From contig CM120640.1 of the NCBI GenBank assembly GCA_051362555.1, forward strand, positions 11,098,001 to 11,162,000: DNA of 64,000 nt, written 5' to 3'. This DNA is from Lingula anatina (taxonomy: Eukaryota; Animalia; Brachiopoda). A program made the translations under genes and the position numbers. The notes under the pieces are model-generated. The model saw nothing but the letters and a program-made list of their open reading frames with translations, searched no databases and was not told the origin of the DNA. This document shows, piece after piece, positions 4,901-64,000 of the stretch (position 1 is its first letter; the number at the start of each line of letters is the position of its first letter).

Positions 4901-7900
4901 CGAAAATAAAACAAAATATAATTTTATATAAATGAAACTCTAATGAAAATCACTTATATATTTTTCTGCAGTTAATTCATTAACCTACAAATTTGTAATT
5001 TGTAAAATAAAGATTACTGGTAGGTGATATTCACCTTTTGTTGTTTCCTCTGTTTCTTAGACATGTGTTTGCTGGTGTTCCTGGCAAATCCATCCACAGC
5101 ATTCAGAGGCTGTTCCTGGCTGTCTTCTTCCTTTTTGCTCACATGCAACCCTTGATCAGGCTTCTTCTTTGAACCAAAGCAACTGCTCAGGCTATTTGGG
5201 CGACTGGGCTGATAAAAGAACAAGAAAAAGAATCCCTAATATATAAAAAAAAAACATTAAAAATGCACAAATGATTCAAGGGTAGGTAAATTTATCAAAT
5301 TTCTAATTTTACTCAAGATAAAGCAGTAATCATTTTAAATGAATATTTTCAACTTTTTATGACAGAAAGAAAAAGAAACACATTAAAACTGTTTGTTAGA
5401 CTATTTAAGTTGACTAAAATTTTGGTCTGAAAGCCATGACCAACTTTTGGCATGAAATGATTTCTGTAACAAGATCAAGTCATCTTGGGAATGAGAGGAT
5501 AAATAAGCAATGTTTCGCCATTAACATACATCAACACAGACATCTTACTAAATGTACATAACAATTTTGGTTTTGAAAAAATCTTCTTACCTTTTCTTCA
5601 GCTATTGGTAAGGAAAGGTCAAGGAAAGGCTCAAATATCTGGGAAGACTGTAATTTCAATGAATATGCAATAAATATTTAATAAAACCAGTTTTGTAAAA
5701 ATTACTTCCACTTGTACAGAATAAAAGTTAAAAAGATGTGTGAGATACTTATTTACTCAAACTTAGTTAACATAAGCACCATCTTTCATTATCGCTTGTT
5801 GGTATATACAAATGGATATTGTATGATCAAACTGATAAAATACCTTGATATTTGTAACTGTGTTATTTTGCTAACACTTCAATAATTATAAATAACCATT
5901 TTTAACATGCTGCTCAACATACGCAGCCCAATACTACTTACACAGAAGCTTTTGGGCATTGATAACCATCAAACTGCAGCTTCACTTACCATGTTGCATT
6001 CCTCACATGTGACAGTACTCAGCAGAAGTCCCCCAAACACACTGTCCACAAATGTTTGCTTGGTATACTGTCCATAAACTGCAAATGAAAAAGAATGTGC
6101 TACATATTCATCTTCTGTTGAAAAATTTATCTTGAAACTCTTAAAACTAATTAAGAAGTCATACATTTAAGCACATACACTGGTTTTATGCAGCACAAAG
6201 AATGATCAGCAACCACTCACCTTTCAGTTTAGCTTTAGTGTCTTCGTCACACTTCTTGGGGTTGATGTTCATCTTCTGTAAAATTGCAGACTGCACCCTC
6301 TGAAAATAGGTAATCCATTTTCTGGTAAGTATATTATAATCTTAAATAGAAATACGTCAGAAGTTTCTATATAAAATGCACATGATATAGATACATTGAT
6401 CAGGACTTGGTGCAATATTGTGACAACTCCCACTCACATGCATGCACCAACATGTGTGCATACATACATACATGCACGCACACACACTGGATGATTTTAA
6501 GTGTCCATTTATAGCATACATTTTCTTTCCACTACAGTAAATGTCATACAGAAATGGTATACTGGAATGTTTGTTTCTCTCCTACAGTAAGCAAACTGAC
6601 AAGCATCTAATATCCAACAACAATTTTACAAAAATAAATAAATAAATAAAACAAATTTTTATCAAAATTACCTTGATTTCTTCTGTTTTCATTCCATCCA
6701 GCAGATGGCGCAGTAGTTCATGACTGTCTTGTTGCTGAAACCCTTTAAATCTGGGAGCTCTAAACAAGCAAAGATTGAAAATCAACATTTCCCTTTTATA
6801 TCAAACAATGATATCTGTAAGGGCACCAAAATATAGAACTGTAAGGCCTTTTAACAGACAGAAATACCAAAATACAACTAAATAACCACTGTAACATTTA
6901 TCATATAAATTCACTACACAACCATTCTAGTTTACCATCTTCCCAGACTGAAATGGTTAAGACCTGTGACTAGCAGGGCAGTGCAAATGTCTTACACAAT
7001 TACGATTATTTAATTGAAAATTTCCTTTGTAACAATGTAACAACATGACCTACTTTTTACACACTTGTCCAAAGAGGTAGCTTGGGCTGATCACATTATT
7101 CTTGGTGGCGGAGTTCATGTCTTTGAGAAAAGACAGCATGGAGAGGGTCAGAGATCCGGCCTCAGGTAGCTCCACTGACAGAGGCTCCTTAAACAAGGAC
7201 ACAAGATCAATGACATCTAACTTATTATTTTCAGTAGATATTAATCAAGATTTGTACAGTCCTACAGTTTTACCTTGTGCGACAGTCATCAATATGTGCA
7301 CTTGATGGGCAGTGCCCACATCAATTCACTGTCACTGGATATCATGTAGCATACACTTTCCCTCCAAAACTGTGATACAAAGATACAGATTGGGTCTACT
7401 GGTATGCTCTCTTCAAGCAAACATGTACAGTTTGAGATGTAAACATTTGCAAAATGCCAGTAAAACTGAAGCTGTGTCAGTGAAATTTCATACAAATATT
7501 CAGTTACTGGCCACCATTAACGATTTGGGCAACTTGATCCTATGACCCTTGTGGTTTAAAGGATTAGTTACTTAAAAAGGTGTTTGGCATAGACTGCATG
7601 TAAAGCACTTTTCATGTTGTTCTTATTGATCAATTGTTCATCAAAAAATTTTTTCATGTGTTAAAAGAACCAATTACAAGTTTAACTATCATCTACATAA
7701 CAATTTAATCTATGAAGAAACAAAACATCTATTATTGATACCTAAAGGTATTTCTGACACTTACAACTCTGATCCTAGGCTGGAGTTTTTCCTCCGTATC
7801 GCTGTCCTCCTCACTGGACTGGTCACTGGAGCTCACATCTGCATCAGCATTGGAGGCTATGTGGACACTTAGTCCCTTCTTACTGTTCTCATTTAGGATC

Positions 7901-10760: not shown

Positions 10761-11318
10761 TGGACAGGCTGTCACTTACTCATCTAATTTTATCTGGTAA
10801 TAAAACATCTTCCTACATTCATATTTTAATTTGGAGAACAAAATGATTATAAACAATTTTTTTCATACATAAACAGCAAATGAATTGCTCACATTTTATC
10901 CTACTTTCATTTTTATGATTGATTAAATGCTCTGTCAGAACAGAAACCATTCGAGGAATTTAACATCAGAACAGACTTGAAACTCTTCCTGCCAGGTTGG
11001 GCAAAAGGGCAATTTTAAGCCAGGTTTTGTGTTACAAGATTGGCATGCTTTAATTTCCAACCGAATTGAAGAGAATCACGCCAAAACTGAAATTTCTTAG
11101 TACATATTACACTTTATAAAGTTAGTTTCATCGGTAAGTCACGCAAGCGACATCTCTCATCAAACGATCAACCCACGCGTGAACTTGCCATTCTGACTAA
11201 ACCATAATTATGTCAAGCTGTTTCCAATGGCTGGCAATTCATATCGCTTATCTAGCTAGTTATCCTATTACTATATCAATCGTTTATTATTACGAATGAC
11301 AAACAGGTGACAACTTAC

Positions 11319-11410
11319 CTACTTTTATCTAAGAAAACGAGAGACAAATACCAGGAAGGTCCTCATGGTTGATATCATGGCTTCACCTGAACGAGATGAT
11401 TTACGTCAGG
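11319..11410 (-). promoter_or_regulatory. Probable non-coding first exon and promoter of USP16/45
   Basis: Strong minus-strand donor TAG|GTAAGT with the exon ending at 11319, and a matching acceptor TTATTACCAG| at 10793. CpG density rises locally at ~11.1-11.7 kb, with a CRE-like TTACGTCA at 11401-11408. The 5' boundary is approximate. Confidence 0.55.
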
Positions 11411-11626
11411 TCGTTATCGTAGAACTCAATCTTAGTAGCAAGGAAATTGTATATAAAAAGATGTAATTGGCAAGCAATATTAGACTTATTCTTGCATACT
11501 CGCAAGATATTGATACCTAAAGCATCTGTTATTATTTTATGAACAATCTCAGTGTCGTAGTGGGTCCAGAGGGCAGCACATACTAGATTGAAAAAATATT
11601 TCCAAGATAAACCAAAGAAAACTAAG

Positions 11627-12137
11627 ATGTTGAGTAAGCTTGTCTTGATTGTAGCCGCACGACACTGATAGGTGCTGCCATCCTGCAGGTGAAAATTTTA
11701 TTCTCATTAAAATATCACCATAGTGTCACACTTTATAAATTTTTTTCATAAGTTAAATGGTCTGAAGCGTTTTAAAGTTTAAGAAAACATACTTAATGGG
11801 TGCCGGCATTAGTTCACGATTTTATAGAGCTTCTTTTTAACAAATATTTTCATCGATATGATGAAAGAATAAGAATTGTGTTGAGAATGACTATAAATTA
11901 TTTAAGAGCATTTTGGGATTTTTTGTAAAGTTTGTATTTCAATTAGTTCATTCTTTAATATTATGAATTTTGGTTTTTTTTTTTTTTTTGCTTATAGCGT
12001 ATAGGCCTATCTTGACCTATATCTTTAAATGACAAACAACATTTGTGTGGGTATAAATCTAATCTAACAAGTTTTTCAACCTGCAACACAAAATACCTTT
12101 GAAATTGTAATGTTAATCTATTTTAGTGGTTTTTCCC

Positions 12138-12173
<36 letters not shown>

Positions 12174-12276
12174 GAACATCGTCTACACCACACAAATACA
12201 CACACCTCTATACAAAAACGAAGAGCTCTTAAATCACCATCAAAAGAAGTTCTTTCTCAACAAATTATTCCTTTAA
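11627..12276 (+). pseudogene. Possible two-exon small secreted-peptide gene with a 1-nt frameshift, or a divergent lncRNA
   Basis: TATAAAA at 11452 and ATG at 11627 giving MLSKLVLIVA. The shifted frame continues TTLIGAAILQ to a donor CAG|GTGAAA at 11688, then a strong acceptor (CT)nCAG| at 12174 and a phase-0 ORF to TAA at 12276. Confidence 0.25.
12146..12172. repeat. (CT)n microsatellite ending in CAG (doubles as a splice-acceptor-like tract)
   Basis: Direct reading. Confidence 0.9.
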
Positions 12277-14938
12277 AACACTGCCCTCCATTTCCAACCC
12301 CTCTTTCATTGCATGTAAGAAAAGAATATCAAATTTGTTGCTCTGAAATTTGACGACAAGGGCTTTCTGTTATCGCCCTCGAACGGAGCTTTTTAACTGT
12401 CACATAGAATTACCGAGGCGATCGACAAGAACAAACTCTGTGCAGAAATCGGAAATCTCTTTCTGTGGAGTTATATCAATTTTCTGGATGTCTGAATTTT
12501 CGCCGCAAAACCATCTCTCTGCAGTGGGTATCACTGCTTAATCAAATCAATTAGTTGGGCGTTCGATTTCGGAAAGCGTCGTTGCGATTATTTCATTTCG
12601 GTATGGCTGAAGTTACAGGTGGGGGGATCTCTACCTAAGGCATTGTAAACTGAGAAAGTACGAAAGGAAATCACTGCAGTATAGATTCTAGAAAAGCACA
12701 TTTTAGTGCGGATTAATTTTATCTCTCGTCCAGCTGTCGGCTAAATTCCTATCCCATCCCTCAGAGCCAGTATGTGGGTCTAGTTAATAGATGATAGGCT
12801 GCGACAGCATATCGCTCAATTTAAGGATATGTCGTCATATTATCTTCACAAATTTGATGGATGAGAGCTGTTTTTTTGCACGACCGTATCAAGGCTTGTC
12901 TGCTTCGGTGAGCATATTTCACAGCAAATGTTTGCAATAAACTTGTTTTATTTCTATCTCCTGCGCGCTCAGCGTGATGGGTATATGATGTAGTATTTCA
13001 ATTTTAGGGTCTCTCCCTATATTTGCCATATTTTTGTGAATTGTGCCGACGAGAAAAAGAAAGCAATGGGCGGTGCGGTGTAATAGGAAACACAAACATG
13101 ATATTTGCTTTAGCACACTTTCAATTTAAGACAAGAATGTGCTTTATTACTAAACCAGGCTGGGGTGCTGCTCTACTATGTGTCTCCAAGCGCCCTAGGG
13201 CCAACAGTTGGTTTTGTGGTATTTGGTAATGATTACATTTAGGCAAGAATAAAGATCTTAAAGCTATCTTAATTTGTTTTCCACAATAAACATGTTTGTG
13301 GAGGATCTTTTCTTGAAAAGAAACAACAAAGGTGCGGGGACGGACAATACATCTAATCCACTTATTACAGTAGCAATATTATTTGGAAAAAATTTCCATC
13401 CGTCCCTTTCTCTGCGGTCTTTTTTGTTGTTGTGTCGCAGTTTATTCATAAATCCTAACTTTGATCTCTTAGATACACAATGTAGATTGTCAAAGCGGAG
13501 TAGAGGAACTTTGATGAATCTTCCCGACTCAAAGCCTCGGGGCTGGAAACACACTGCAAGTAGACGGTCGGATGCCAAGTGGATGCAATTTATTGCAGTC
13601 ACTCCGGGTAATCGCTCTCCGGGCCAAAGGAACAGATTGCTTTCATTTTCTCCCTAAAGGTTAACCAGCCGTCCATCCTCAGCAGCTACCATGAAATATT
13701 CTAGAATGTTAAGGTCGATTAAATCAAGAGGAACACGTCAAATACAATGTTCATCTTTTGCGTATGATATTGAATTACTTACATTCTTACTTTGTTTATT
13801 ATCAACGCATATCAGAAACGGGGGAACATAGATGATTTTTTATATCTCTATGGTGGAATTACATTGGAATTTTCACTAAAAAAACAAATTTCTTTTTCTG
13901 ATTTTAATGTCCAAGATAACTGCAGAGGAATGTCACTTTGCGATTTTCTTTCTTTTTTTCCCTATTCGATCGACTTAAATTGCCCATCACCAGACCCGTT
14001 TTTACGAAACTACACATCCATTTGCACCGTTAAACCCTGGCCAGGGACGTCATGTACCCCATAAAGCCCTAACCTTTCACTCATTGCCCCTTCACATGCG
14101 AAAAGAAAATGAAATTCTGGTCGAGATTAAGACCGTGGCGCATGCAAAATACTCACTAGAACATATGGGGATGAATTTTATCATTCATGATATCTGAATT
14201 AGCGGCCGAAGTAAGACGGGCATTAAATGAATCACGGCAAGTGGATCAATTACAATTATGCTCCTCCGCGAATCATAACACATCTAAAACTAAATTAGCT
14301 GATATACGCCTGGGTGTTAACAGTGCCCGTTTGTTTTAGCTGTATGTTGAAATCTACACACAAGATAAGAGCAAAGAACTTAAGAAAATGCGTCTTTGAT
14401 ATTGGATTTCTGTAATTGGATCTGCTTATGCTTTATACATCCACGAAGCTGTGGATATGGTTCTGTCGTCTGTAATAATCATTTAAGTAACTTAAAGACT
14501 GAAAATTGACCATATAAAGAGACTCAATTTTGTTTCATTTTGTTTTATTTATTTATTTATTTGTGGAGGGAGGGTATAAAAGAAATGATATTATTTTGAA
14601 ATATTGTGATGCATGCAAAAAAAAAAGAATATCCCATATTTTGTTCTCCATTCTTCCTCAATCAGCATACAAACATTTCAGCTCTCAATCATACCTACCC
14701 GCAGCCAAACAAAAATTACATTTTAGATGAAGACCACAAGTACTCGGCCATGACTGACTTAGCTCTTCCACGATAAGAACAATCCGATCAACTTCCCATA
14801 TCACAAACAGTATTTGTTTTTCTTCGGTCTTAAAGGAAGGGTTAATAAGCACACTGATATCTAAATTTGTGATTAGTCACAGCACTGGCTGCATGTCCTC
14901 TAATAATGTTGGGTCTACAGAAATGATAAACCAAAAAT

Positions 14939-14941
<3 letters not shown>

Positions 14942-14991
<50 letters not shown>
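14942..14991. repeat. (AT)n microsatellite
   Basis: Direct reading. Confidence 0.95.
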
Positions 14992-14993
<2 letters not shown>

Positions 14994-15617
14994 GCAGGTA
15001 ATCCCTCACAGCCAGTTGCGCGTTGACACGGAGTTTTGTTTTGTCAGCACTTATCAGATGCTGATAGTTCAGTTCACCGGGTTTATCATCGACTGGCGCA
15101 AACTGTTTTTTAATGTTAGAACAGTGCTTTGTTGAATGTCAACTACGGGTGTGTACGTGCAATTTTGCAAGATAAATCAAACTATCGGAGACATCCACAT
15201 CAGCTTGACAAGATTATGACGGAATGCATTGCTCCTTGGTCTATTCGAACAAAGATCTTATCGGTGTAACAGCAAGATTGCATGTACATGAGTGAAGATG
15301 TCCCTCTAGAAGTATTAATGGATAGCATATTATTAACACCTCGCCCATTTCTGAGCAGTGGGAGACGTCAAAAGTGATCCCAAGGGTTAACCCTCTGTCA
15401 GCATTTCATATCGTCATTTTCTATCTTCATATTCCCACATGAAATGAGAGTCAGTCACGCAGCGGGGAAATATGACAGGGATCATATTGTACATTATAGT
15501 TCTAGTCGCGTAGAAAGAGAACAAGCCAAAGGCAGTGGTTACGTAGTTAAACATTTAAATATATACGATCTCAAGTGTTGCAGTTTGCTTTGTCCCTTTA
15601 ATTAAAACATGATTCAG

Positions 15618-15648
15618 ATGATGATTATCATCATCATCATCATCATCA
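15618..15648. repeat. (GAT)/(CAT)n trinucleotide repeat
   Basis: Direct reading. Confidence 0.85.
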
Positions 15649-18600
15649 ACGGCATGAGGGCGAATGAAAAAGATTACCAAACGAACGACAAGAAGAAAGA
15701 AAATATACAGTGAGAACTATATTGTGCATTATAGGCATTATAAACAAGCCTAGTGACTAAAATCCAAGCTCCGTCAAATATTGCATACCAGATTGTTCTC
15801 ATTTATGAGAGAGAAAATTAAACCTTCGAGACATAATGCAAGTTATATGTAGCGGAGACACAGGCGTAATATAATCATATATGGTGAATATAACGTGTGC
15901 GCACGTTTTTCCTATTTGCTAAAAAGCATTCATTTTGTTGGGCCATAATTGCGCTGACATGTCGAGCATTTTGGCAACGTCTGCTGCAAAATATTTAGTA
16001 ACATATTGCAGACGACTTATTCAGTTCTAGTAGCTTAGTCATATAGATTCTAACAGATCCATATATTTATCATTAGTTAAGTATGATGAGTTGAAATGAG
16101 TATAGAAGGAGACACGGCATGTCTATAACAGAAGGTAAATGCATTCTTTAGACTATTTGACATTCCTCTCACGTGCGTGCTTTTTAGATTTTATCTTAAA
16201 TACAGCCGATTTGATCACATTTGGGAGTTGGAACCACCTTGTGACCCGAGGTGCACTTTGTTGATAAGTCAAAATGGTAAAAGTGCCATCAGTTTCGAAA
16301 AACAAAATGAGTAGGCTTTTAAGCATGGTTTTTCTTTTATTTCACGCGAACAAAAAAAAAAAAAAAAAAAAAACTTTTTGAAACACGTGAACACATTTTA
16401 AAGACAGGCAATGTGCGTCTCAGGTTCGAATCCGTGCTACAAACTATGTACTCAGCAGATGCTAATGTATTTCTATAATATTCACACGTATGTAGTACTA
16501 CATATACTTCTCAAAAAAACAGTAAAGGTATGCTGGTTCGTTTTACATCAAACAGACTCAGAATATGCGACGTGCCAAGCACGCTACGGGCCTCGGATGG
16601 AATTTTCTGCAAATTACCCCTTCTACTTTACGCTACTATTAAAGATCAATCCATGTTCTTTGAAAAAAAATCAATTTTGTTGAGTTTTTTGTCTCTTGAC
16701 AGAGTAGCATTTTGGCAAGTTCAATCTCTTCCCACAGTTAATCAAAGTTGATGAAAAACGCAGTCTAGTGATATCTTCAGAAAATTGTAAACAGCTAACA
16801 CAACTGATCAACATGCCCGTTAGAATGTTGTAAGTTAAATCTCGTAGTTTGTGCTCTACTCGGTCAACGTGAACCTCACGTCGCTCAAACACTGCAGAGT
16901 TTGGCAGACGCGCCGTTTTGAGTAGACCCCCTGGGTCGACATTGCAGGATATTACACCGCAAAGATGCCCGACATCAGTTCTAACGCAAAGCTGATCGCG
17001 ACCATATTATGGAAGATATGACGTCCTATAAAAACATGAAAAAAAGAAGGAAATTCACACCAGAACAGGATATTCGATCACAAATTATTAACACTTTAAT
17101 GCATTTATGAAATCAGGAAACTAAATTGATTTTTCTTCGTCCTTTTTGAAGTTAAAAGCTTTTCTGCAAAATTACAACAAAGAATGTATTCAGTTTTTAT
17201 GGAAAACGCATCACATCAGTCAGATGTGTTCATTGTGCCCGGTACAAGTTATTAGAGACACCGGGGACTCGCATTCCTCTTCTCTTTGGTATTATCTCTC
17301 CAATAAAACTCGACCTCTGACCTCTTATCATTTAGTTGTAAGCTTCTCAAATCAAGAACCGATATGCCACTCACGCTGCAGTGTATTTCAAACCCCGCCA
17401 TTGAGACTACTTAGACAAAATGGCCCAACAAGAAAACTTCTAAACTGATAACAGCATGACGCGCTAGATATTTCCGATGAGAACACAATAGAAGGATTTA
17501 ATCCGGTTTAGCAATGGTGTTGATAACAGGGAATTAAGACTTCGAGGAGCGACTAAGTACAGTAAACTACATGGAGTTGGAAGTGCGCACACATACACAA
17601 TCAAACACTACCCGGGCATGCTTTCTACCCCAGCTCATTATCAAACTTAGAAAAAGCCCCGCCAAACGTCGTTAACACAAATTTCCTGCGTTGGAACAGA
17701 TCAGCGACGGGTGGTAGATATGAAATGGATTTCTCCGTGCCAAATTTAATTGATTTACTATATCTTTGGGTCTCTTCCTACGCACGGAAACGGAAGAACT
17801 GCTGCACACTACATATTTACAAAGCGAAATTTAGACTTGGGAAGTTTCATCTACATTGCACGAATCTTTAAAGGGAAAACGGTACATATGGTGGGAAAAC
17901 GCGCGCGCAGCAGCGCGGGCCTCGACCTACGTAATCGTGTCAGTTAGCGGACCGACTGCGTTATTCAGATAAAGCACAGATGTTGTCAGTACTATGCTGA
18001 GTACAAAACACGTGTGATTAGAGGCGCATCGAGTGGGGGTCTAAAGCTTTAGCACTGAAGTGTTACACAAAGCACAACACAAACTACAACCTTGTTTTCT
18101 TTCCTTTAAACCAGGTGGCCGGCGTTACAACTGATGCAAAATGAAGCAACAACAACTTGTGAAAGCCCATTGTGACAAATATATCGAGCGTTTTATTATA
18201 ATTTTCGATCCAAACGGCCGAGTGATTGAAATCAAAAACACCAGCTTAACTGCTTTGTTACAAAATTACAACTCCACATTTTATGTTACAAACGTGAAAT
18301 AAAAGTTCCCTTACTTACTAATCGATTCAGTATTGCGTTTGAAGCATGGACTCCCATGTTTCATTATTAGTGACGTGCGAATTAACACAAGGTGAGCATT
18401 TTAAGTACTATCCCAACCCTGCACGATATTTCTAAATATAAATAAAAGTAAAAAGGATTACTGTGCACAATTTTGTTCACCTTTGTTCTAATGATCACTC
18501 AAAAACGATCTAAATTATCAGTACGGGTGGCAAATGCAGGTTTCCGGAAGTGAAAAAAAAAAAGGATGCGCGATTATTGGCATCGTTAGTAAACTGCAAC

Positions 18601-19626
18601 TATAGCACCAGCAGAACGAGTCTTGCAAAAATTTCTGCAGACCTAAAATAAAAATAAACAAACGGCAAGAATATGTGAACCACTACAATGTTAAAGTATC
18701 TGTTTGACATCTCAGAGTAATAGAGTTCATATGAAGACTTCCATCATCAATCAGCCGCGCTTCACCTTGTGACAGCTGGCTGCCGTAGCATTTAGGTCAG
18801 AAAAATATCATCTGCCTATAGTTCTATGATCAACAAAACATTCAACTCAAATAGAAGACTAAGGAAAATCCATTCCCTTTGATATCCTTCCACTTCAATA
18901 GAAATTCCCCATTTAAAGATCAAGGGCGATTGGTCCCGGTGCAGATAATTCTTTCAAGTTTCCTGATTTTTATCGAGAGGCACCAGACGTTATCTTTCAG
19001 TACCTGATCCAAAACGGCAGACTTTTGGATCTCTATGTCGAAACTGAATAAATTTGCTGTGTTTATACAACACACTTTAACAATACCCCATCTAATTAAA
19101 CTCATACGGGCTCTCCTTTCCGGCTAGTGCACATGAATTACCTGTATGGCACGGTGGGACAAAGCAAACAAAAGAACGAACTAAATGCACAGGGACCGAC
19201 CCCCACTTTATGGGTACCTTCCAAATAAATTAGTATCTGTGCTCACATAGAAGTCTTATCACTCATCTTCCAGGATGAACCGGAGAATTCCAAGGCTTTG
19301 ATTACGTTTAAGTACAAACAATCTAGCCGATTGTTAACTGCCTTGAGTTCTCTGTAGTACAAAGCCTATTGTAATCAGGTATCCATTTGCAATTACTCTG
19401 CAAACGGGCTGCGGATTACCACTTAAAGTCAACACTTATCACACAAAAGCTATTTTAACTGTAGCTCTCCTCGCTTATTCATTGCACAATTTTGTAAACC
19501 AGGAAAATTCAACAACTCTGTTGAAGTTGGGGTTAAATAAAAATAAAGTCTCTCTTAACTTAAAGGATTTTGGCCACTTGAACGGCAGTATGATCATACT
19601 TCAAAGCTTTCCACAGCCCCTCAGTA

Positions 19627-21492
19627 TCACACCCTGACCCCCACTACGTCCTTGTCTTTCTGACCCGCGGGGACCATTTTAACTACAGTGGCTTGTTGAG
19701 GTGCTGGGTATGCCATCACCACGGTTGGACTGGGAACGTTTGTGGTGGACTTTCGTGGAGAAAATCTCCTTGAGCAAAACATTTTCCATGAGTTTATCGT
19801 CTTCCCTGTCCATATCCACATCCCGCTGGTGATGCCAACAATTAGAGACATGAAGATTTTGAGCATGTAAACTTCCACTGTAGGAATGGAGGCTTCTAAA
19901 CTACAGTCTTGTGCTCCAGACTCTGTTTCTTTACATGGTCTGGCCATTGCTATTTGTCTCCAAGCATCAGCATTTAGCTGCTCATAGAATAAACACCCAA
20001 CCACACAGGTGGCTGGCACAGTATATAACACAGAAAAGATTCCTATTTTTGCCATGAGTTTTTCTAGTTTTCTGAGGTTCTGTCCCCCATTGTTTTTCAA
20101 ATTTTTCCTGATGTGCACCATGGCAACAAACCCGGCTAATATAAATGCTGTTCCAAGGAGGAGATAAGTAAACAGTGGAGCTAGAACAAATGCAGTTAAT
20201 GCTGTCTTATCTTGATGTCCAACATAGCATAATCCAGTCAGCTCATCCCCATCGACACGCCTCATTGTGAGGATAATAATGGTCTTGATGGCTGGGATGG
20301 CCCAGGCGGCAAGATGAAAATAACTACTCAGAGCCTCTATTGCTTCCTCTCCCCACTTCCTCCCCGCAGCCAAAAACCATGTTACTGTCAGAATCACCCA
20401 CCAAATCGAACTGGCCATACCAAAAAAATAAAGAATCAAGAAAACGACGATGCACCAAGTGCTTTCAAGACCCTCTTGAATTAAGAAGTCTCCTTTCTTG
20501 CTATGATCACAAGAGATTGGGTCAGCTCCAATGCTGGCCCGTATTATATAGGCTGTGGAATAAATCAAGTAACACACAGACAAGAAGATGATGGGTCTTT
20601 CTGGGTACTTGAATCTTGATGTGTCTATGATATATGTGAACACTGTAATTAGGGTAGAAAGTGAGCATAACGAGGCCCAGATTGTCATCCATATAAATGC
20701 AAATTCTTTGTCACTATGTCGGAAATATACATCTATGTTACACTTGGGTGCACATGTATCATTTTCTCCTTGTTTACTGATATGTAAAAATCTATCCGTA
20801 CATGTCAGCTGTCCCTTTTCACCGACCACCCCATAACTGGGGTCATCTTTGGGTATTTTGACAGTGCTTGGAACAGTTGTAGTTGTGGTTGTTCTTTCTT
20901 TAAGGAATTCCTGTAATTTGTCCCATCCTGTGTTGTCCCATGGGCTCTGTGAAATACCAATGCCCGCAGGTAAACGGTCCAAATCAATAGGGTGTTTATC
21001 ACGTTCAGCTTCACTTGGAATTTCCATATCTTTTGGAGCTTCCATACAAAGTTTTCCCTTTTTGTCAGGGAAATTTGAACAGTTTAACATACTTGGCCAA
21101 TTGAAGTTGAATCGATGTAGTACTGGCTCGCATTTTTCTTTCACTTTTTGACACATAGTCCTACATGGGGGTATTACCAGTATCTCATCGACTTGTTCGG
21201 TGCACATAGGCGCATGAAGCGAACACAGAAAAAACTTTAATAAACTCGTGCTCAGTCCTGTACATCCTATTTGAATCAATGGAATAAACTCCTGTACCCG
21301 CAAGCCCGCCTCATCTTGAGTCCTATGTCCCACGATATTTGGCATACTGGTCATGTTATATTTCATGTCGGAACAGAAGGTGATGGCTATACGCTCACAC
21401 CGCTCGTGAGCTGTGTGAAAGTCCTGATATCCCTGGCCCAGCACCGCAGTACTTATGGTGCTTAACACCACTATCCATCTCCACAGGGCCAT
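19627..21492 (-). CDS. FZD9/10: Frizzled-9/10 Wnt receptor, single coding exon, 621 aa
   Basis: Signal peptide, then a 10-Cys CRD (CERIAITFC...YNMTSMPN...FFLCSLHAPMCTEQV...CMEAP; the MCTEQV and LCMEAP segments are Fz9/10-type). Seven TM helices with RFKYPERPIIFLS, YFFGMASSIWWV, YFHLAAWAIPA and KLEKLMAKIGIFSVLYTVPA. Dishevelled-binding KTxxxW (KTINSW) at 19786-19803. C-terminus ends ...GVRV. Confidence 0.97.
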   Translation of the reverse strand: MALWRWIVVLSTISTAVLGQGYQDFHTAHERCERIAITFCSDMKYNMTSMPNIVGHRTQDEAGLRVQEFIPLIQIGCTGLSTSLLKFFLCSLHAPMCTEQVDEILVIPPCRTMCQKVKEKCEPVLHRFNFNWPSMLNCSNFPDKKGKLCMEAPKDMEIPSEAERDKHPIDLDRLPAGIGISQSPWDNTGWDKLQEFLKERTTTTTTVPSTVKIPKDDPSYGVVGEKGQLTCTDRFLHISKQGENDTCAPKCNIDVYFRHSDKEFAFIWMTIWASLCSLSTLITVFTYIIDTSRFKYPERPIIFLSVCYLIYSTAYIIRASIGADPISCDHSKKGDFLIQEGLESTWCIVVFLILYFFGMASSIWWVILTVTWFLAAGRKWGEEAIEALSSYFHLAAWAIPAIKTIIILTMRRVDGDELTGLCYVGHQDKTALTAFVLAPLFTYLLLGTAFILAGFVAMVHIRKNLKNNGGQNLRKLEKLMAKIGIFSVLYTVPATCVVGCLFYEQLNADAWRQIAMARPCKETESGAQDCSLEASIPTVEVYMLKIFMSLIVGITSGMWIWTGKTINSWKMFCSRRFSPRKSTTNVPSPTVVMAYPAPQQATVVKMVPAGQKDKDVVGVRV

Positions 21493-21634
21493 AGTAAAGC
21501 TCTGGGAGTCGCAGAATCCTCTTAAACAGCACTCGGTAAGAGTCTCCTGCGGCGTGCTCCTTCGCTAGGGTAAACAGCTCTTCAGCTGGAAAGACTTCAG
21601 CACTCGACTGCGTGAAGGCTGCTAGTATCACCGC

Positions 21635-21712
21635 TTAACTCAATGTTGAATGATCAATACGCCAACAACAGGTTCGAATAATAAATCTATATAAGATTCT
21701 TTTCACACACAT
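21635..21712 (-). other. Upstream ORF (25 aa, MCVKRILYRFIIRTCCWRIDHSTLS*) in the predicted Fz 5' UTR
   Basis: This is the only ATG I found between the TATA-implied TSS (~21765) and the Fz start codon. It ends at TAA 21635-21637. Confidence 0.4.
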
Positions 21713-21790
21713 CAAATGTGTACAAATATCGATTATGAAGCGGAAGGCTTTGACACTTTGAATAGTAACACGATCCGGGTTTTTGTGCGC

Positions 21791-21798
21791 TTTTTATA
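21791..21798 (-). promoter_or_regulatory. TATA box (TATAAAAA) of the Frizzled gene
   Basis: Minus strand reads ACTATAAAAAGCGC about 300 bp upstream of the Fz ATG, within CpG-rich sequence. Confidence 0.55.
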
Positions 21799-23149
21799 GT
21801 ACTATTTTGCGAGCAATCAGCGTGTCGTCCGTATTCCTCCGCTCGGTAGGCGGAATGTTTTGCTCACTTTGAACCAACCGCACGAGCATCCAGCCATGTC
21901 AATCACCCCGCAGGCCCAGTAATGGGATACCCTTACTTTAATACAATGACAATCAGCCTTCAGCATAGCAAGAAAAAGAAAAAATACAAACTGCATTTAA
22001 CTGGGTTTCGCTTGATCTCCACCAACAATTTATCTTTATTATCTTTTCTTTAACATCTTCCAATTATGCGATTCTCCTGTCTAGATGCTTTGCCAGCATG
22101 GTTGAGGCAAGCTACTCTAAAAGATTGCCCTCTTTGATAAACAGCCATTGGAAAGTCGTTTACCATTTTGATGCTATAAATCAACATGTTGGTGTCATAT
22201 TTTCTGGTCACTAACGTTGAACAAGCCTCAAAAATTATAGACCAATTACGTAATTCCGCAGAATACTTATCATGGACACACAATATCCCCGTTTTGATTT
22301 CAGCACGTAATGGCCATTACTGATATGTGGAAGCGTCACTGTCCGTTCTTATGGCTTTGTGCATGTGCCTACCAGCCTTGTGATATTTTTACTTAGAAAT
22401 ATTTAGAATTGAAATGTAATAAATATTTAGGTAGGCCCTATTATCAGAATTGTAAGGGGTGTGTTGCGGATGTCACAGCTTCATTTTTTTGTGGTTAGCA
22501 TGTAGGTGTGAGAGGATTAGAAAAAACGAAGGGAGGGGCTATAACAGAATGAAAGGGGACTGATGAAGGCCAGCAAAGAAACTAGTTTTAGTTAAACAAG
22601 TTATATAGAAAATTAAAGGGGGACTTCTGCATTAAACAAGGTTCACCGTTATTAATTTACCAAAATGAGTCCATCAACTTATATGCAGGTACTAACTATC
22701 CCCCCTCTTAGATATGTACCAGTAGTTAGTTATTACACAATGAAATGCTATATGAAACTCTTCTCCCATTTTTTTTTTTTTTTGCTTTGCATTTTCAAAA
22801 ACCTTCTATTTATTTATTTATTTATTTATTTATTTATTGAAAATTGAAATTGCATTATTAGACAATAAAACAAGTGCACAACAAGAGGGAAAGCTATCCC
22901 ATACTGGATAACATTGCAAATAATTATATATCGATGATTGAATGTAATATAACCAATATTATCCCTTTCAGTAAAAGGGGTTAGCAAACACATTGGCACT
23001 TATATAATAAGAATTACTTAAAGTTTAAATGTATGGGGTCGACAAAACTTGGGAATCCTTTTAACATTATCTAAAGTGTAATTCTGGATGAAAATCTATA
23101 CACAACCTGGGTTCATTTTCGAAGATTTTTCGATTTACTACCCTTTGAA

Positions 23150-23235
23150 GCCTTCGTACTTTCAATGTTGTTGCCGAACTGTCATACGAGCACGCGTAAG
23201 TGACCTAGTTCTGTTGTTAGACGACATGTTGACAG
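23150..23235 (+). promoter_or_regulatory. Candidate non-coding first exon of ANKRD6
   Basis: Consensus donor GACAG|GTGAGT at 23235/23236 within a CpG-rich patch, after which the DNA becomes CpG-poor like a methylated gene body. The start coordinate is approximate. Confidence 0.5.
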
Positions 23236-26200
23236 GTGAGTGCGTTACGTTATCCGCCTTTTACCGTTAAATATTCAGTTAAATATAAATACCTTTTGCA
23301 AATTTAGGCTACAGAAACAGTGTCATCTTTCTCTCCCTTCTTATTTCCCCCTCTCCTTCCAATTCTCTCTCTCTCTCTCTCTCTTTCTTTCACACACACA
23401 CACAACACAGATCACTGACGCGAACCTCAAGATTTTGGCTCTCACCGAACCGTTGATATTAATGCCATTTTTTCACAGAGTTGCTGGGATAATAGTTAAC
23501 TTGGATTTTGCTTACAGTATTCAGATATGGTAACATTTTGAACTCGGTTATCGGTTAAAACAATTAAAAAATATACCCTTACTAAGCTACAGTATATAAG
23601 TCCCAATAAGTATAACTCCTATTCTCTCCATCTACTAGTATATGGTCAAAAGTTTATAAGTTTATAGTTAGCTGAATCGATAATTTAGGATAAATCAGTT
23701 CGGCCGATTACACATGTAATGGAGGTAGTTTTTCCTTTGATATTCTAATCGGATGTTTGCTGTTTGTTTCCCTTACATTTTGTAGTGGTCGAACAATTGA
23801 AGGTTTGTCTGTTCCTTGGTGTGACCAATTTTGCTATACTCTTTATACCTGTATCCATTCTCATTGTGTATTATTCTGTCATTTGGTTTGAAGATAATTA
23901 TTCATGAGCATCACTGTAGCAGTTCTCCATTGCCAAGATTGCTGCTGAAAAATGAGGCAATCAACGGCATACTGTAGCTTTTCGTTTTACCTTGTTTATT
24001 CTACAGTCCAGCAAGGTGACTGCCATAAGTGACACAGAACGTGGAGAATTTGACTACTTAATATAGCAATTGATCTCCCTTATGTCCATATCTGTGGCAA
24101 GATTATTGAGATAAAGATTCTTTTCAGATGTAACACCCCTTAATCTTGACAGAGCCCTATATTTCAGTAGTAAATAATGCATGGTTGGCTATTGTTCCTC
24201 GTTAACCATGCCCACCAGCGACAACCTTGGATGAAAAGTATATCTGGTTGTCTGGTGATTTGTCACCAAGAGGAACGGCAGTAGTCCTAATCTGTGTCTA
24301 CTACACAACGGAATGTTGCCATACTGTCTGAATAGCTCGTGGTAACAATGACAACAAGAAAGTTCAGTTAAAAGAGGAGTGGGCCACAATCTTGACTTTT
24401 GGATCAATAGAGACTCTATAATACATATTCATGAAAAGTCTCGGTTGTGCATTTGTCTGGGATGTAGTATTACCATTTTATGTCGGAGGTAATAGGTAAT
24501 TAGTAAGAAAACAACAGGCTTTTCTTTGTGACAGTCACATATTGAGATTATATTGAATTTTGTTTAATCTCTGAAATTTGCTATTCTGCAGGTAGTCCTT
24601 GATCTAACAACAATCAAGTTTCCAAGATTTTAGTCAGGTATATTTTCATTTTTGTACATGGTAACACCTTTAACATTTTGTTTAGAAATTCAGAGCTAAT
24701 ACAAAATACCAGAGAAATGCTTTACAAATTTACCTAACCTAAGGTGGCATAGGCCAAAAGTTAGTAATAGAGGTGAAATAACTGTCAGGGTTAGAAAGAG
24801 CTGTCTTTTCCTACTAGTGATAGTGTTGTTTGCACCTGTAGGCTACACACTGCAAATGTTTTGTCAGTGCTTTCCCTTTTCTTAAAGGTTGATGGATTGT
24901 GTGTCATGAAAAATTTTTTAAAATAATGGTGGATGGATAGGCATTACCCATCTAAGATATCTTACTCTTTTCTGATGAATAGGGTGGTACAAATTAAAAG
25001 TTTGATGGACACATGGCATTTAAAGTTGATTTTACCAGATTTCAGTTCCTGTTTTTCTGTGTTCTTATCACGTTTGGTGTAGTGTTCTAGAATTTCTAAT
25101 TATTTAGCACCTGACAATTAGTTTCATTTGAAGATTGAATGTTTTAATTCAAGTAAGATTGTCTTATCTGATCTCAGTTAAGAAATGATTTGGAAACTTC
25201 TAATGTTAATACTACAGTATTTCTCTGTGGAAAAATTTCATCTTTTTGAATTATAACCCGGAAATTGAAAATAGTATGAATACCATGGAGTGTTATAGCT
25301 CTCTTACCATTAAGGATGGTATTTGGCTTGAGATATTGCTGTACTATGTTTCTCTGGGACAAAAATACTGTATGTATCAAATCCTGATTTGTTGTGAAAT
25401 GTAGAAATGGCCTTAGAATAATTTGGGTGTGCATATGAAGGAAAACATTAAATTTGAATGCCTACCCTTTCAACTATATTAAAAAAATATAAATTTGCAC
25501 TCATTACCTTGGATGTATGCTGACACAGAAGACTTTGTGATTGACATAGGCCGTGAATTCCATGCTCAGCATCATGGGAGTTAAGACAATCAGTTTATTA
25601 ACGAGCAGCAGGTCTTGTGATGTGACATTGCTAGGCAATAGACAGCCACTGGTAGATTTTGCAATACTGGAATGTGTAGGGGTACTCAATTCAACGATCA
25701 AGTGTCTGATAAGGTTTTTAATACAGGTAGTATATAAAAAGTCTATCTGGGGCACAGTACCTGTTATTTCAAATTAGGCACAGGTACAGTAATCAGCTAA
25801 GTAAAAGCTTGTGTTCTGAAATTTGTTTTACTGGCACTACAACATAAAATATAAGTGAGATTAACATTATTTAAAAGAAATTTTATGTGAATTGATAATT
25901 TCAGATAATTGACCTTGTTATGAATATATTTTTATACATTGAAAATGGATAAAAATGATTTTGTGTTTTGATGGGCTGCCAGCATATTGTACACTTAGCT
26001 ACCTGGTTTTATGAAAATAGATAATGAAAAATGCCTTTGTAGGCCAACAAGACAAACTGTTCTTTGGCACTAGGAGTGTCTGTAGACTACGTGAGAGTTG
26101 ACTTCCTGTTGTAGGTTAACTTTTAAATGAAAGCGAAGTTTATAATTTTAAGTACCATTCAGCTGGTAAGTGTTTGGTGACTCCACAAGTTCTGTGTACT

Positions 26201-29200
26201 TGTTAGCTAGGAAAAGCCAAAGACTTAAAGAAAGAAAAAACTCTGCTTTTACTTTGAACCTTGGAATTCTATCAACATTAGGCAGACTTACAAAACGGGG
26301 CTCAACATCTGGAATGTGGGCCCATTATTCTTATAGATGCTGTGAAGGTGATGGTGGCCAATTTCATCATTTTATCAGCTGTTATTTGTCCTAAGTGAAT
26401 ACCATAGTTATGGCATGGTCTTCTGGATTACAGAGTTGGTAAGTTATACATGGTCGTATTTCAGCAGATTTATTTGAGAAAATGTTTCACAGTATGGGAT
26501 ACAGACGTATCTGAATGGCATGTTGAGCAGTGAATTGTACAATTGAATGTTCCGGGATATTAAACTCGATGTTTGTTTGCATTTTCTGATAGCATTGATT
26601 TGGTTCTGAGTTGAGCTTACTGCAGGCTAGAATCAAGAAGACAAAAGATATGTAATTTCATTTATTGGAAAAAAAAAGAATAGTTGTATCATGCCAAGTC
26701 TGTGACTACTACCATGCTATGCAAGAAGAAAGGGGTAGGGATGGCAGACCATTGAAAAGCACATTAAGGTTAGGATATCTAATTTGGTGTGACAGAGGAA
26801 AAAGCACCCTGGGTGTATGTAAGCAGTGTCATGTCCTGGTGCTGTCATATCTTGTAGTCCTTACTGGGTACTTGGATGCTATCAGAAACCTTGTTCATAA
26901 AACAAAACATGGCCTCACAGAAGTTGAATCCGATACCATGGGAAATGAGATTTTAGCCACTGCTGATCAGGTCCTAACTTTACTAGAATATGCTGGTCGT
27001 CAAGTACATGGATAAGTTTCTGTCATTGGAATATTGTGGTTTTTAATCATATCTCATGTATATTTCCAATGTGTATATCAGGCCCAAATTGGGAGAGTGC
27101 TTTTCCTCTAAAGAATGCGTGGGTATGCTATTTTACTTCTTATCTTTTTGTGTGCATTCTTTGGTGTGTGACATGTCTGTATGTAATAGATTTTAAGAGG
27201 TGGAAGGAGGTGTCATCCAGACTTGTATGACCAAGGATGGGTTTTATGCCAAGTTCTTTATGACTGACTATACTGCCAACAATGAAAATATTGGGGGTGT
27301 AGCTTAATGTAACTGAGATACAGATTCTTCTAATGTCATTATCTCATCTTATTCAACATATTCCCAGTAATCTTTTCTAGATCCAATGTGGTAAGTGTCA
27401 GTGCCTTTTCATGTATCATATAATTAATATTAGTTTGCTTTGACAAATTCCCCTTGTCTTTTTGCACTGATGTTTATATTTTGTGTGAAATGGAGGGGAA
27501 CCCCATCTGTCTGCACATTGATTCTGTGGAAATGGTTTGAAAATGACATTAATGGCCATTTTATGTGAAGGGATTGTTTTGTGGGGATAGTTTGCTGTTT
27601 TTGGAACTTTACACACACACTGCTTGATGAGTGAAGGTAAACGTCTGGGTGATGCCAACTTACAGGATGAAAGCATTTTTAAATCCCATGTAAGTGGAAA
27701 GACTGTCAGCATCCACAGTTAAAAGGTGTTGACAGTGACTTACCTGCCTTCCACTACCTATCAGCATTGCTTTTGACACTACTATGAATGTCAGGGTGGT
27801 GGATCTTTGGCCTGTCACTTAGAAAAGATTAAGTGAATTAACAATGATATGCTACTGCATTTCTAAATGTGTTAATTTAATTCCACGAGCTTCTGGTTTT
27901 GTGCCTGTTAAGGATGGGCTGACTTCTTTGCAATAATGTGATAATGATAGGACTATTTTCTCAGGTAGGTATTAGGAGGTGGGAGGGTCATATAATGACA
28001 ATAATAATGTAATGATGCAAAGATTAATCATAAGCCCAGAGCAACTTGGAGGATCAGGCAAGCTTTGTAAAGAGAACTTCACTGCTCTTTCCTGTGATAA
28101 AATTCATCTAGTTGGGGGTTCTCCTTATATCATAAATCACGATTATAATACCCTAGACAATTAAGATTGCATGAGGAATTAAATTTTTGTATGTTCTTCC
28201 CTTGCTTCCCACTATTTTAATTGATATCACCACAGGATAATAATACATACTTATGTGGCCAAGTCAGTCCATTTGAATGTAAGGGCCTGTAATATATTGG
28301 CCATCAAATGAGATGATCGTATTACCTGTAACTGATATGTGTCTCTCTGTGGTGGAAATGTCAGTTGTAGGTCATGGATGCATTCTGTGCCTTGGTATAT
28401 TGTTTCTTTTTAAAGTGCACCTTGGTGAAGGGTACATTTTATATCGCAGACTAGAGAGGATAGAGGATGACAGAGAATAGTATGGTTCATGTTTTACACT
28501 TAAGTCTTGGGCACAGTCTAGTGAGTTCACTATAGTGATAGGGTACGAAAATTCAGTTTAATGTCATTCTTGTTCAATAAGGTTAGCACCTAGTCTAGAA
28601 GTATTTTTTAGCCTTTTTGTATAAGTATAATATGGCTGCATCCATCAACTTTTTAATTCAAGCCAATTTGAACAGACTCCCTGCATTAAGTTGTATGTCA
28701 ACACATTAAAAGAGGTAGGTGGTTGATAAATGACGAGTTCCAGACTGAGGCCTAGACTTTTAATTGCAATCAGACTGTCTTCTTCCTGGAGTTCATTTAG
28801 AAATAGTTCAAGGACCAATCAGCATTCCCTTTTACCCTTCATATAACGCAGCAGAAGAACAGAAAAATAGTATTTTTACCCCCTTGTTTTCACTTTCCTT
28901 TAGTTATTTTATGGAATGGAATTAAAGAATTCATATATTGAAGAGGGGAAAATTTTGTGGGATTGTTCTTATTGAAAACAAGGTTGGATGGGACCCATGA
29001 TATGCATTTTAATTGCTTATTTTCACTTGAAGAACAGCACTAAGCAACAATATTTTTGCATATGTCCTATTTAGAAACTTTTGTTAATATCTGCAAAGTT
29101 ATTGTTTGTTATTCAGGCTTTTTCATTGATTTTCAAGTGTGAGGAACAATCTCAGAGTTAGGCTGACCTTGTCCTGTAGAAAAGTCATTCCGTATGGGGT

Positions 29201-29889
29201 GTTAAGAAGTTCAACTTAACAGACCTTGTTTTAGTTTCATTCCCACTCCTCCCGACTCATAAACACTGATGTTTTTTCAGTGGTTATTTAGGTTTAGTGA
29301 ATGTGAAGGGTACGAAAGTTAACAGCAATCTACATAGAGAAATAAAATGGATTTCACGTGTAGTTAATTTTAAGCAGTTTTATTGCTTTTACCTGGAAGG
29401 AAGAATCAGTGGATAAGCTTAATTGAGTCGTTATAGCCAGTTTTACATGTGTCAGATCATAAAATTCCAACAGATTATTAGCATCATTATGTTCTTAACT
29501 TACGTCACACCTGTTAAAATGTCTGTGGTAAATTGTTTTGGTTCATGATAAGTTAACATATATTATTTGTAAGTTTAGAAATGGGAAATGTTTATGTAAA
29601 AAAGAAATAAAAGTAAAATTAAAACATCACATCATGGACAAGATGTTGTATGTCTAAATGTGTACTCTCTTTACAGTTCTGTTGCTGATGATTGAAAAAA
29701 TATATTTGTCACTAGGTTGCTCTAATCTTGATCAGGAAATGTGCAAAAGTAAGAATAACAATTTCAGATACATAAGCAAGTATTAATATTTTACCAATAC
29801 AAAAGAAATATTAAATAGAACAGTTTTAAGGTATGTTATTTTCTTTCAGACTGATTAACAACATTGGAGAAGAAATAAAAAGGATATAA

Positions 29890-59608
<29,719 letters not shown>

Positions 59609-61332: not shown

Positions 61333-63871
<2,539 letters not shown>

Positions 63872-64000
63872 CTGAAAAGACCAACACTTTAACCAAATGT
63901 ATATTTTAATGATATGAAGTCATCAAATTCAAATTTTTTGTACTAATTTCATGTTATGATTTCAATTAGTTTGTTATATGAATTTTTGCATGAAAAGTGA

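What the first reader, a model, noticed from the sequence alone, without database searches (positions are those of the whole stretch)
19627..59608. Frizzled-9/10 and Diego/Diversin (ANKRD6) sit head-to-head: candidate co-regulated Wnt/PCP receptor-adaptor module
Seen: Fz9/10 is transcribed leftward (TATA 21791-21798) and ANKRD6 rightward (candidate first donor at 23235), so their 5' ends are ~1.4 kb apart with no gene between them. Established: Diego/Diversin is a core planar-cell-polarity protein acting on the Frizzled-Dishevelled side, and Diversin dampens beta-catenin signalling while promoting JNK/PCP output. Human FZD9, FZD10 and ANKRD6 are on different chromosomes. Inference: a shared bidirectional promoter or enhancer set could co-express this receptor with the adaptor that biases its output. 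That would also be unusual because the classical PCP receptors are Fz3/6 and Fz1/2/7, not Fz9/10. I do not know of this linkage having been described.
Basis: partly seen in the sequence, partly recalled or inferred. Interest (0 to 1): 0.8.

Follow-up and report, generated by a model that had tools for sequence, protein, structure and literature searches.

The report
Ancient Frizzled-9/10–Diversin head-to-head gene pair
In a lamp shell (Lingula) genome a Wnt receptor gene and the gene for a cell-polarity adaptor of the same pathway point away from each other, likely from two promoters about 1.4 kb apart, and database numbering suggests they are still neighbours in limpets, abalones, mussels and scallops, but the one published expression study (in another brachiopod) does not show them switching on together.

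Summary
The window is a Lingula brachiopod locus. Frizzled-9/10 (minus strand, 21492-19627) and a true ANKRD6/Diversin (plus strand, 11 coding exons, 40652-59608) diverge with no recognisable gene between them. Their start codons are 19.2 kb apart. The '1.4 kb' figure rests on a non-coding first exon ending at 23235, which I could support only indirectly: strand skew flips at 22.2-24.9 kb, CpG depletion begins at 23.7-24.6 kb, and sparse plus-strand RNA begins at 23.0-23.4 kb. No splice joint was seen.

New here: accession numbers and scaffolds place the two genes next to or near each other in 10 of 27 other species (Patella, Haliotis, Mytilus, scallops). They are on the same chromosome, unresolved, in 9 and on different sequences in 8. 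The neighbourhood likely predates the brachiopod-mollusc split and was likely lost more than once. No paper found describes it.

Co-regulation is not supported. In Terebratalia, dgo is maternal, then low and patchy, while fz9/10 rises at gastrulation over the broad mid-body. The two genes also differ in CpG class. Best reading: an ancient 5'-5' microsyntenic pair with two separate promoters, a new member of a known kind.

The parts
19627..21492 (-). Frizzled-9/10 CDS, single ORF, 621 aa (CRD + 7TM; KTxxxW-type motif KTINSW, motif recalled)
18400..19626 (-). Fz9/10 3' UTR, at least to 18400 (edge of the stretch laid)
   Evidence: continuous depth in 4 of 4 runs, minus-strand in the 2 stranded ones
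21493..21798 (-). Fz9/10 5' leader and core promoter: TATAAAA 21798-21792, inferred start near 21766
   Evidence: sequence; reads fade at about 21.6 kb; TSS not mapped
21799..23000 (.). Spacer between the two inferred promoters, with a CpG trough at 22.5-23.0 kb; a few minus-strand reads at 21971-22327 in 2 of 4 runs
23000..23235 (+). Candidate distal non-coding first exon of ANKRD6 (CpG peak 23.0-23.25 kb; donors after 23195 and 23235); left edge not mapped; splicing to ANKRD6 not shown
11061..24484 (.). CpG-intact domain (o/e 0.91 in 11-19 kb, 0.76 in 21.5-24 kb, Fz CDS 0.45) holding Fz9/10, its 3' gene-free stretch and both promoters; flanked by CpG-depleted gene bodies (o/e about 0.2)
   Evidence: change points
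29850..29928 (+). Candidate internal non-coding exon (AG...GT)
   Evidence: sequence only; no joint seen
30780..30972 (+). Alternative 5' coding exon of RefSeq isoform X1 (ATG 30804); preceded by an AG acceptor, so possibly internal
39535..39567 (+). Alternative 5' coding exon (coding part) of RefSeq isoforms X2/X3
40641..40783 (+). ANKRD6 common first coding exon (ATG 40652)
46624..55243 (+). ANKRD6 ankyrin-repeat exons: 46624-46722, 52284-52385, 52928-53026, 53259-53357, 54536-54634, 54808-54906, 55166-55243
55489..56031 (+). ANKRD6 exons 55489-55671 and 55858-56031 (start of the conserved post-ankyrin block)
56558..59608 (+). ANKRD6 last exon: conserved block, Q/P-rich tail, DSGYSS motif, C-terminal GSDV

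Best explanation
Frizzled-9/10 and ANKRD6 are divergent neighbours in this genome that are likely driven by two separate back-to-back promoters and have likely stayed together since the brachiopod-mollusc ancestor because the only place to part them is a roughly 1.4-kb spacer, not because they must be co-expressed. SHOWN: identity, exon structure and orientation of both genes; one CpG-intact domain over Fz and both promoter regions; a CpG-depleted, G-skewed plus-strand unit from about 24 kb to the ANKRD6 coding exons. INFERRED: the distal ANKRD6 start lies at 23.0-23.2 kb; CpG depletion reflects germline gene-body methylation, so ANKRD6 is a maternal or broadly expressed gene; Fz9/10 is a TATA-driven patterning gene whose enhancers likely lie in the CpG-intact stretch on its 3' side (11-19 kb); a break in the spacer is rare and would cut upstream elements of one or both genes. 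Some shared input at the distal promoter is possible but would couple only part of ANKRD6's output to Fz.
For: Skew change point 22.2-24.9 kb. CpG change point 23.7-24.6 kb; the same method puts the neighbouring USP gene's boundary at 10.9-11.1 kb, about 0.2-0.4 kb inside its candidate first donor at about 11.3 kb. In 5 stranded runs, plus-strand reads lie only from the bin starting at 23042 onward, with none in 20900-23041. There is a CpG trough between two CpG peaks. Near-consecutive accessions in 9 species and one more sharing a 1.73-Mb scaffold, out of 27. The genes are on different sequences in 8 of 27, including different chromosomes in Dreissena, so the link looks dispensable. Discordant expression in Terebratalia. 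5'-5' is the commonest and best-kept orientation among ancient pairs (PMC3514665 section 7).
Against: No splice joint ties 23235 to ANKRD6. Plus-strand reads were absent in the four bins 30182-31600 in all 4 runs. Orientation and spacing in molluscs could not be read from accessions. No background rate of adjacency retention was computed, so neutral retention is not excluded. The expression data are from another brachiopod whose linkage is unknown, and their late-gastrula domains (apical and pedicle lobes) could partly overlap. No ANKRD6 coding exon was laid with reads, so there is no co-expression measure in Lingula. CpG o/e is a proxy; methylation was not measured.
Confidence: 0.5

Rival explanations
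1. Co-regulated receptor-adaptor module: shared elements in the spacer, possibly Wnt/TCF-responsive, switch on Fz9/10 and the distal ANKRD6 promoter together, so that the receptor comes with an adaptor that damps beta-catenin output and favours PCP.
For: Same pathway (PMC11414264 section 11). Ancient adjacency. Both promoters lie in one CpG-intact domain. Strict TCF motifs CTTTGAW (motif recalled) number 5 against 1.4 expected in 21493-24500 (4 of 300 shuffles), three of them between the TATA box and the candidate exon. Precedent: FZD6-Cthrc1 linkage (PMC7058181).
Against: Discordant timing and domains in Terebratalia. Different CpG class. Alternative ANKRD6 5' exons. Link apparently lost in several mollusc lineages. 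The TCF count is one of 18 post hoc tests, and the looser motif is not enriched there (55 of 300).
Confidence: 0.2
2. Classical genomic regulatory block: Fz9/10 is the target and ANKRD6 a bystander whose 17-kb 5' introns hold Fz enhancers.
For: An intronless developmental gene beside a gene with long 5' introns fits predictions 1 and 2 of PMC3514665. Discordant expression is expected in such blocks.
Against: The 5' introns are CpG-depleted (o/e 0.21-0.22) and show no TCF excess (14 against 18.5 expected). The CpG-intact, gene-free stretch is on the other side of Fz. ANKRD6 is not functionally unrelated. No conserved non-coding match to 80 short metagenome loci (a weak test).
Confidence: 0.17
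3. The ANKRD6 promoters are at about 30 or 39.5 kb, and the plus-strand RNA at 23-30 kb is a separate non-coding transcript; the genes are then ordinary distant neighbours.
For: RefSeq 5' coding exons at 30804 and 39535. No joint seen, and no reads in 30182-31600.
Against: G skew (z +8.1 over 29930-39400) and CpG depletion run unbroken from about 24.5 to 40.5 kb, with no CpG peak at 30.8 or 39.5 kb. The 30.8-kb exon has an upstream acceptor. At least four RefSeq transcripts encode the 40652-start protein, implying non-coding 5' exons.
Confidence: 0.13

Closest known systems
Conserved ancestral microsyntenic pairs, 5'-5' class (PMC3514665, Irimia et al. 2012; section 7 and passages read, supplements unavailable)
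   Same: Two non-paralogous genes, divergent orientation, short inferred spacer, adjacency apparently kept across phyla.
   Different: Seen here only in brachiopod plus molluscs, with apparent repeated loss; co-expression not shown. 'Frizzled' and 'Fzd' do not occur in that paper's main text; its pair list could not be read.
FZD6-Cthrc1-Slc25a32 synteny block of gnathostomes (PMC7058181, passages read)
   Same: A Frizzled gene kept next to another Wnt/PCP component; co-regulation proposed there but stated to be an open question.
   Different: Different Frizzled subfamily, a secreted partner rather than a cytoplasmic adaptor, gnathostome-specific; the orientation there was not checked.
Genomic regulatory blocks (target plus bystander; PMC3514665 passages)
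   Same: A compact developmental gene beside a long-intron gene, with differing expression.
   Different: The neighbour is in the same pathway, and the CpG-intact gene-free DNA lies away from it.
Terebratalia transversa fz9/10 and dgo/diversin (PMC11414264, sections 8, 9, 11 read)
   Same: Orthologues of both genes.
   Different: Linkage is not addressed in the sections read; expression is described as differing in time and place.

Membership tests
Frizzled 9/10 subfamily | CRD plus 7TM Frizzled domains | tested here: met
   PF01392 and PF01534
Frizzled 9/10 subfamily | Groups with named Fz9/10 and vertebrate FZD9/FZD10 | tested here: met
   FastTree: sister to Terebratalia Fz9/10 (96); clade with FZD9/10 at 85. 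The outgroups were unnamed metagenome Frizzleds. Named top hits are mostly 9/10; a few carry automatic 'Frizzled-4' or arthropod-style 'Frizzled-3' labels.
ANKRD6/Diversin/Diego | N-terminal run of 6-8 ankyrin repeats | tested here: met
   definition from PMC11414264
ANKRD6/Diversin/Diego | Orthology: clade with Div/ANKRD6 and shared post-ankyrin block | tested here: met
   Clade of 20 at SH-aLRT 99 (quick tree; no vertebrate row). Block present in 20 of 20 clade rows and 0 of 9 other ankyrin proteins. Atlas top hits are chordate ANKRD6.
ANKRD6/Diversin/Diego | Binds Dishevelled and acts in PCP | not testable with these tools
   Inferred from orthology only
Bidirectional promoter pair | Divergent 5'-5' orientation | tested here: met
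Bidirectional promoter pair | Start sites less than 1 kb apart | tested here: inconclusive
   Inferred about 1.2-1.45 kb, with a CpG trough between; starts not mapped (criterion)
Bidirectional promoter pair | Correlated expression | tested here: inconclusive
   Not measured in Lingula; literature on Terebratalia is discordant
Conserved ancient microsyntenic pair | Adjacent in distantly related lineages | tested here: met
   By accession and scaffold proxy: consecutive locus tags in Patella caerulea; consecutive or near accessions in 5 Mytilus, Mizuhopecten and 2 Haliotis
Conserved ancient microsyntenic pair | Orientation conserved | not testable with these tools
   No mollusc genomic DNA holding both genes could be fetched
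Genomic regulatory block | Long introns in the neighbour gene | tested here: met
   17 kb inferred 5' intronic span; introns of 5.8 and 5.6 kb
Genomic regulatory block | Conserved non-coding elements or enhancers for the target inside those introns | tested here: inconclusive
   No blastn hit to 80 short loci; CpG-depleted and no TCF excess
Genomic regulatory block | Bystander functionally unrelated to the target | tested here: not met
   Both are Wnt/PCP components

The most novel reading that the evidence does not exclude
A Wnt receptor and its output-biasing adaptor have shared one Wnt/TCF-responsive regulatory spacer since the Cambrian ancestor of brachiopods and molluscs. Wnt input co-induces Fz9/10 and the distal-promoter ANKRD6 isoform in the same cells, a hard-wired feedback that tilts Fz9/10 from beta-catenin to planar-polarity signalling. 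The maternal ANKRD6 expression seen in bulk data would come from other promoters and mask it.
Probability: 0.18. Interest if true: 0.72.

Novelty: new member of a known kind. Interest (0 to 1): 0.45.

Why it matters
The linkage appears undescribed and older than 500 million years (age recalled from the fossil record). It joins two members of one pathway, like the vertebrate FZD6-Cthrc1 block whose function is still open. It is apparently kept in limpets, abalones, mussels and scallops and broken in several other snails and clams. That gives a natural experiment on whether same-pathway neighbours are held by co-regulation or by promoter geometry. If co-regulation were shown, it would point to Fz9/10 as a polarity receptor in spiralians. 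As it stands it is a specialist's synteny note. It also corrects a RefSeq label: the 'trithorax group protein osa' of L. anatina is ANKRD6.

Tried and rejected
No whole genome is held for this window. No RNA holder was listed by the index; 9 raw-read runs of the same species label were offered and 7 were laid (X1-X5, X7, X9). The first lay was swamped by an interspersed repeat at 31.7-33.2 kb, hiding 28 joints and 448 loose ends. The second gave no joints at plus-strand depth under 2.3. A search with the first 140 residues of the last exon found only the Lingula protein. The metagenome scan gave 80 Frizzled loci, mostly short; none had ANKRD6 exons or non-coding matches, which is uninformative because only 2 had a full 10 kb upstream. 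PDB ranks FZD4 first among full-length chains because no full-length FZD9/10 was listed; among isolated CRDs FZD4 and FZD10 lead. It was not used for orthology. The careful ANKRD6 tree did not finish; the quick tree is quoted. Large RefSeq XP gaps were rejected as evidence of separation: the adjacent L. anatina pair is 42-48 apart, and P. vulgata is 2,919 apart while P. caerulea is consecutive. 'Different scaffolds' can also mislead: an older M. galloprovincialis assembly splits the pair that RefSeq numbers 2 apart. TCF enrichment was treated as a lead only (post hoc; CTTTG ranked 13 of 1024). Earlier scan findings: none. Literature: ten searches listed no paper whose title or abstract start describes the linkage; three-term searches for ANKRD6+frizzled+synteny, microsynteny+frizzled+diego and ANKRD6+FZD10+syntenic gave 0 papers. 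Supplements that may bear on this could not be read: PMC3514665 (none held), PMC13121700 (two spreadsheets and one PDF too large), and Fig. S15 of PMC11414264 (labels only).

Full report
ORGANISM AND GENES. The Frizzled ORF (minus, ATG 21492, stop 19627, 621 aa) is 97% identical to Lingula anatina frizzled-9, so the window is from Lingula. It has the Fz and Frizzled Pfam domains. In a 46-row FastTree it is sister to Terebratalia Fz9/10 (96), within a spiralian clade (99) that joins vertebrate FZD9/FZD10 at 85; the other Frizzled classes were represented only by unnamed metagenome rows. On the plus strand, 11 GT-AG exons, all phase 0, give an open 1404-aa frame from ATG 40652 to 59608. RefSeq L. 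anatina has this gene, labelled 'trithorax group protein osa', on the same 1.17-Mb scaffold as its frizzled-9. It is ANKRD6/Diversin. It falls with Terebratalia Div and ANKRD6-labelled mollusc and chelicerate proteins (SH-aLRT 99, quick tree), all 20 of which share a post-ankyrin block absent from 9 other ankyrin proteins. The nearest Atlas clusters are chordate ANKRD6 (0.98). Between the genes there is no Pfam hit in the 2 unassigned long ORFs and no Rfam hit.

WHERE DOES ANKRD6 START? Four indirect lines support it. (a) Strand skew changes at 23,642 (interval 22.2-24.9 kb). The log-likelihood gain is 42 at 23.2 kb, 17 at 29.85 kb and 2 at 39.4 kb. G skew over 23240-40640 is +0.127 (z +10), matching a known ANKRD6 intron (+0.126) and mirroring the minus-strand USP gene (-0.117). 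(b) CpG o/e falls from 0.76 (21.5-24 kb) to about 0.2 at 24,484 (interval 23.7-24.6 kb) and stays low to 40.5 kb. The same method puts the USP gene's boundary at 11,061, near its candidate first donor at about 11.3 kb. CpG o/e as a proxy for gene-body methylation in invertebrates is used in PMC8330077 (passages). (c) The donor at 23235 is the only AG|GTRAGT in 18.8 kb, under a CpG peak. (d) In stranded runs, oriented by the Fz reads, plus-strand RNA appears from the bin starting at 23042 to 30181 at depth 0.1-2.2, and never in 20900-23041 (X4 agrees). Against it: no splice joint was listed, the four bins 30182-31600 were empty in 4 of 4 runs, and RefSeq has 5' coding exons at 30804 (X1) and 39535 (X2, X3). 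I put the distal start at about 80-85% likely. Fz reads fade near 21.6 kb, consistent with the TATAAAA at 21798-21792 and a start near 21766 (inferred). A CpG trough at 22.5-23.0 kb separates two CpG peaks, which looks like two promoters rather than one.

IS THE ADJACENCY CONSERVED? No animal genomes can be read here, so I used accession order and scaffold length as a proxy. Twenty-seven other species had both genes among the rows returned (top 120 hits per search; 30 clusters looked up). Ten point to adjacency. Patella caerulea has locus tags SNE40_019693 and 019694. Mytilus coruscus has CAC5397611 and 612-614 on a 350-kb contig. M. californianus, M. edulis and M. trossulus are consecutive, and M. 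galloprovincialis is 2 apart. Mizuhopecten is 2 apart on a 530-kb scaffold. Haliotis rubra is 6 apart (2.46 Mb) and H. rufescens 10 apart. Ylistrum shares a 1.73-Mb scaffold (ANKRD6 accession not looked up). Nine share a chromosome-scale sequence with distant or unknown numbering: P. vulgata, H. cracherodii, H. asinina, Babylonia (both duplicates), Tubulanus, Ostrea, Mactra (903 apart), Sinanodonta (1,017) and Biomphalaria glabrata (894). RefSeq gaps are not positional, so these are unresolved; the last three use GenBank numbering and are probably separated. Eight are on different sequences: Dreissena (two chromosomes), Nucella (four scaffolds), Physella, Plakobranchus, Elysia marginata, B. 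pfeifferi, Candidula and Bulinus (short scaffolds or mixed assemblies weaken some). The simplest history is adjacency in the brachiopod-mollusc ancestor, with likely losses in the caenogastropod-heterobranch snails and the heteroconch bivalves (grouping recalled). The ten species are four mollusc families, not ten independent cases. Orientation is unknown, and no annelid, deuterostome or ecdysozoan pair could be tested. That human FZD9, FZD10 and ANKRD6 are on different chromosomes is recalled, not checked.

IS IT A CO-REGULATED MODULE? The only expression evidence found is for Terebratalia (PMC11414264, sections 8, 9, 11). [quoted passage not shown] The timing is nearly opposite, although local overlap is not excluded and linkage in that species is unknown. 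In the window the genes differ in class: Fz lies in a 13-kb CpG-intact domain that includes a 7-kb gene-free stretch on its 3' side, while ANKRD6 has a CpG-depleted body and several 5' exons. TCF motifs are in modest excess in 11.4-19.6 kb (18 against 9.2; 1 of 300 shuffles) and, in the strict form, in 21.5-24.5 kb (5 against 1.4; 4 of 300), but not in the ANKRD6 5' introns (14 against 18.5). These are 18 post hoc tests and the motif ranked 13 of 1024, so they are a lead only.

MECHANISM. Best (0.5): two separate back-to-back promoters whose short spacer is a small and costly place to break, with largely independent expression. Rivals: co-regulated module (0.2), regulatory block with Fz enhancers in ANKRD6 introns (0.17), and downstream-only ANKRD6 promoters (0.13).

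KNOWN KINDS AND NOVELTY. Ancient 5'-5' pairs are a described class (PMC3514665, section 7 and passages), and a Frizzled kept beside a PCP partner has a precedent in FZD6-Cthrc1 (PMC7058181, passages). Ten searches of the open-access library listed nothing on a Fz9/10-ANKRD6 link. The pair list of PMC3514665 and the large supplements of the Lingula genome paper PMC13121700 (main-text term search and three small supplements only) could not be read and might contain it. Ankrd6/Dgo was not found outside bilaterians (PMC4818920, passages). Verdict: real, apparently undescribed, a new member of a known kind; the co-regulation claim is open and currently disfavoured. Interest 0.45.

Noticed in passing
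window 56558-59608 (+) and orthologues P0141-P0281: The otherwise unalignable ANKRD6 tail keeps short motifs: DSGY in 10 of 10 aligned spiralian proteins (DSGYxS, a beta-TrCP-type degron by recall, in 8 of 10), RSRSDE-like in 7 of 10, and a C-terminal S/T-D-V (class I PDZ-binding type, recalled) in 27 of 30 other proteins, I-D-V in 3. These are candidate Dishevelled-PDZ and degradation signals.
   Followed up: partly
window 20809-20862 (-): RefSeq L. anatina frizzled-9 lacks 18 residues that match a 54-nt in-frame GT..AG segment in the CRD-TM1 linker: a possible exitron or a model artefact. No joint was among those shown.
   Followed up: partly
window 11061-24484: A sharply bounded 13-kb CpG-intact domain around Fz9/10, with a 7-kb gene-free stretch 3' of it showing a modest TCF-motif excess: candidate enhancer field.
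   Followed up: partly
window 21971-22327 (-): A few minus-strand reads upstream of the Fz TATA box in 2 of 4 runs: an upstream Fz start or antisense RNA from the ANKRD6 promoter.
   Followed up: no
window about 1900-11320 (-) and 62060-63880 (-): Flanking genes: a ubiquitin C-terminal hydrolase (PF00443; USP16/45-like by recall) and a thiolase (PF02803) convergent with ANKRD6. Their synteny was not tested.
   Followed up: partly
window 31980-32790, 62556-62752, 40927-43410, 45543-46526: Interspersed non-coding repeats: a palindromic element at 32 kb with a copy at 62.6 kb that draws many partly matching RNA reads, and two elements bounded by 35-39 bp inverted repeats (MITE-like), one with internal tandem units.
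   Followed up: partly
P0016/P0191 and P0056/P0158 (Babylonia areolata): Two Fz9/10 and two ANKRD6 copies, one of each on two different chromosomes, consistent with duplication of the whole linkage group.
   Followed up: no
runs X7 and X9 over window 18400-21500: These runs differ from the window at many more fixed sites than X1 and X4: a divergent population or cryptic species under the same label.
   Followed up: no
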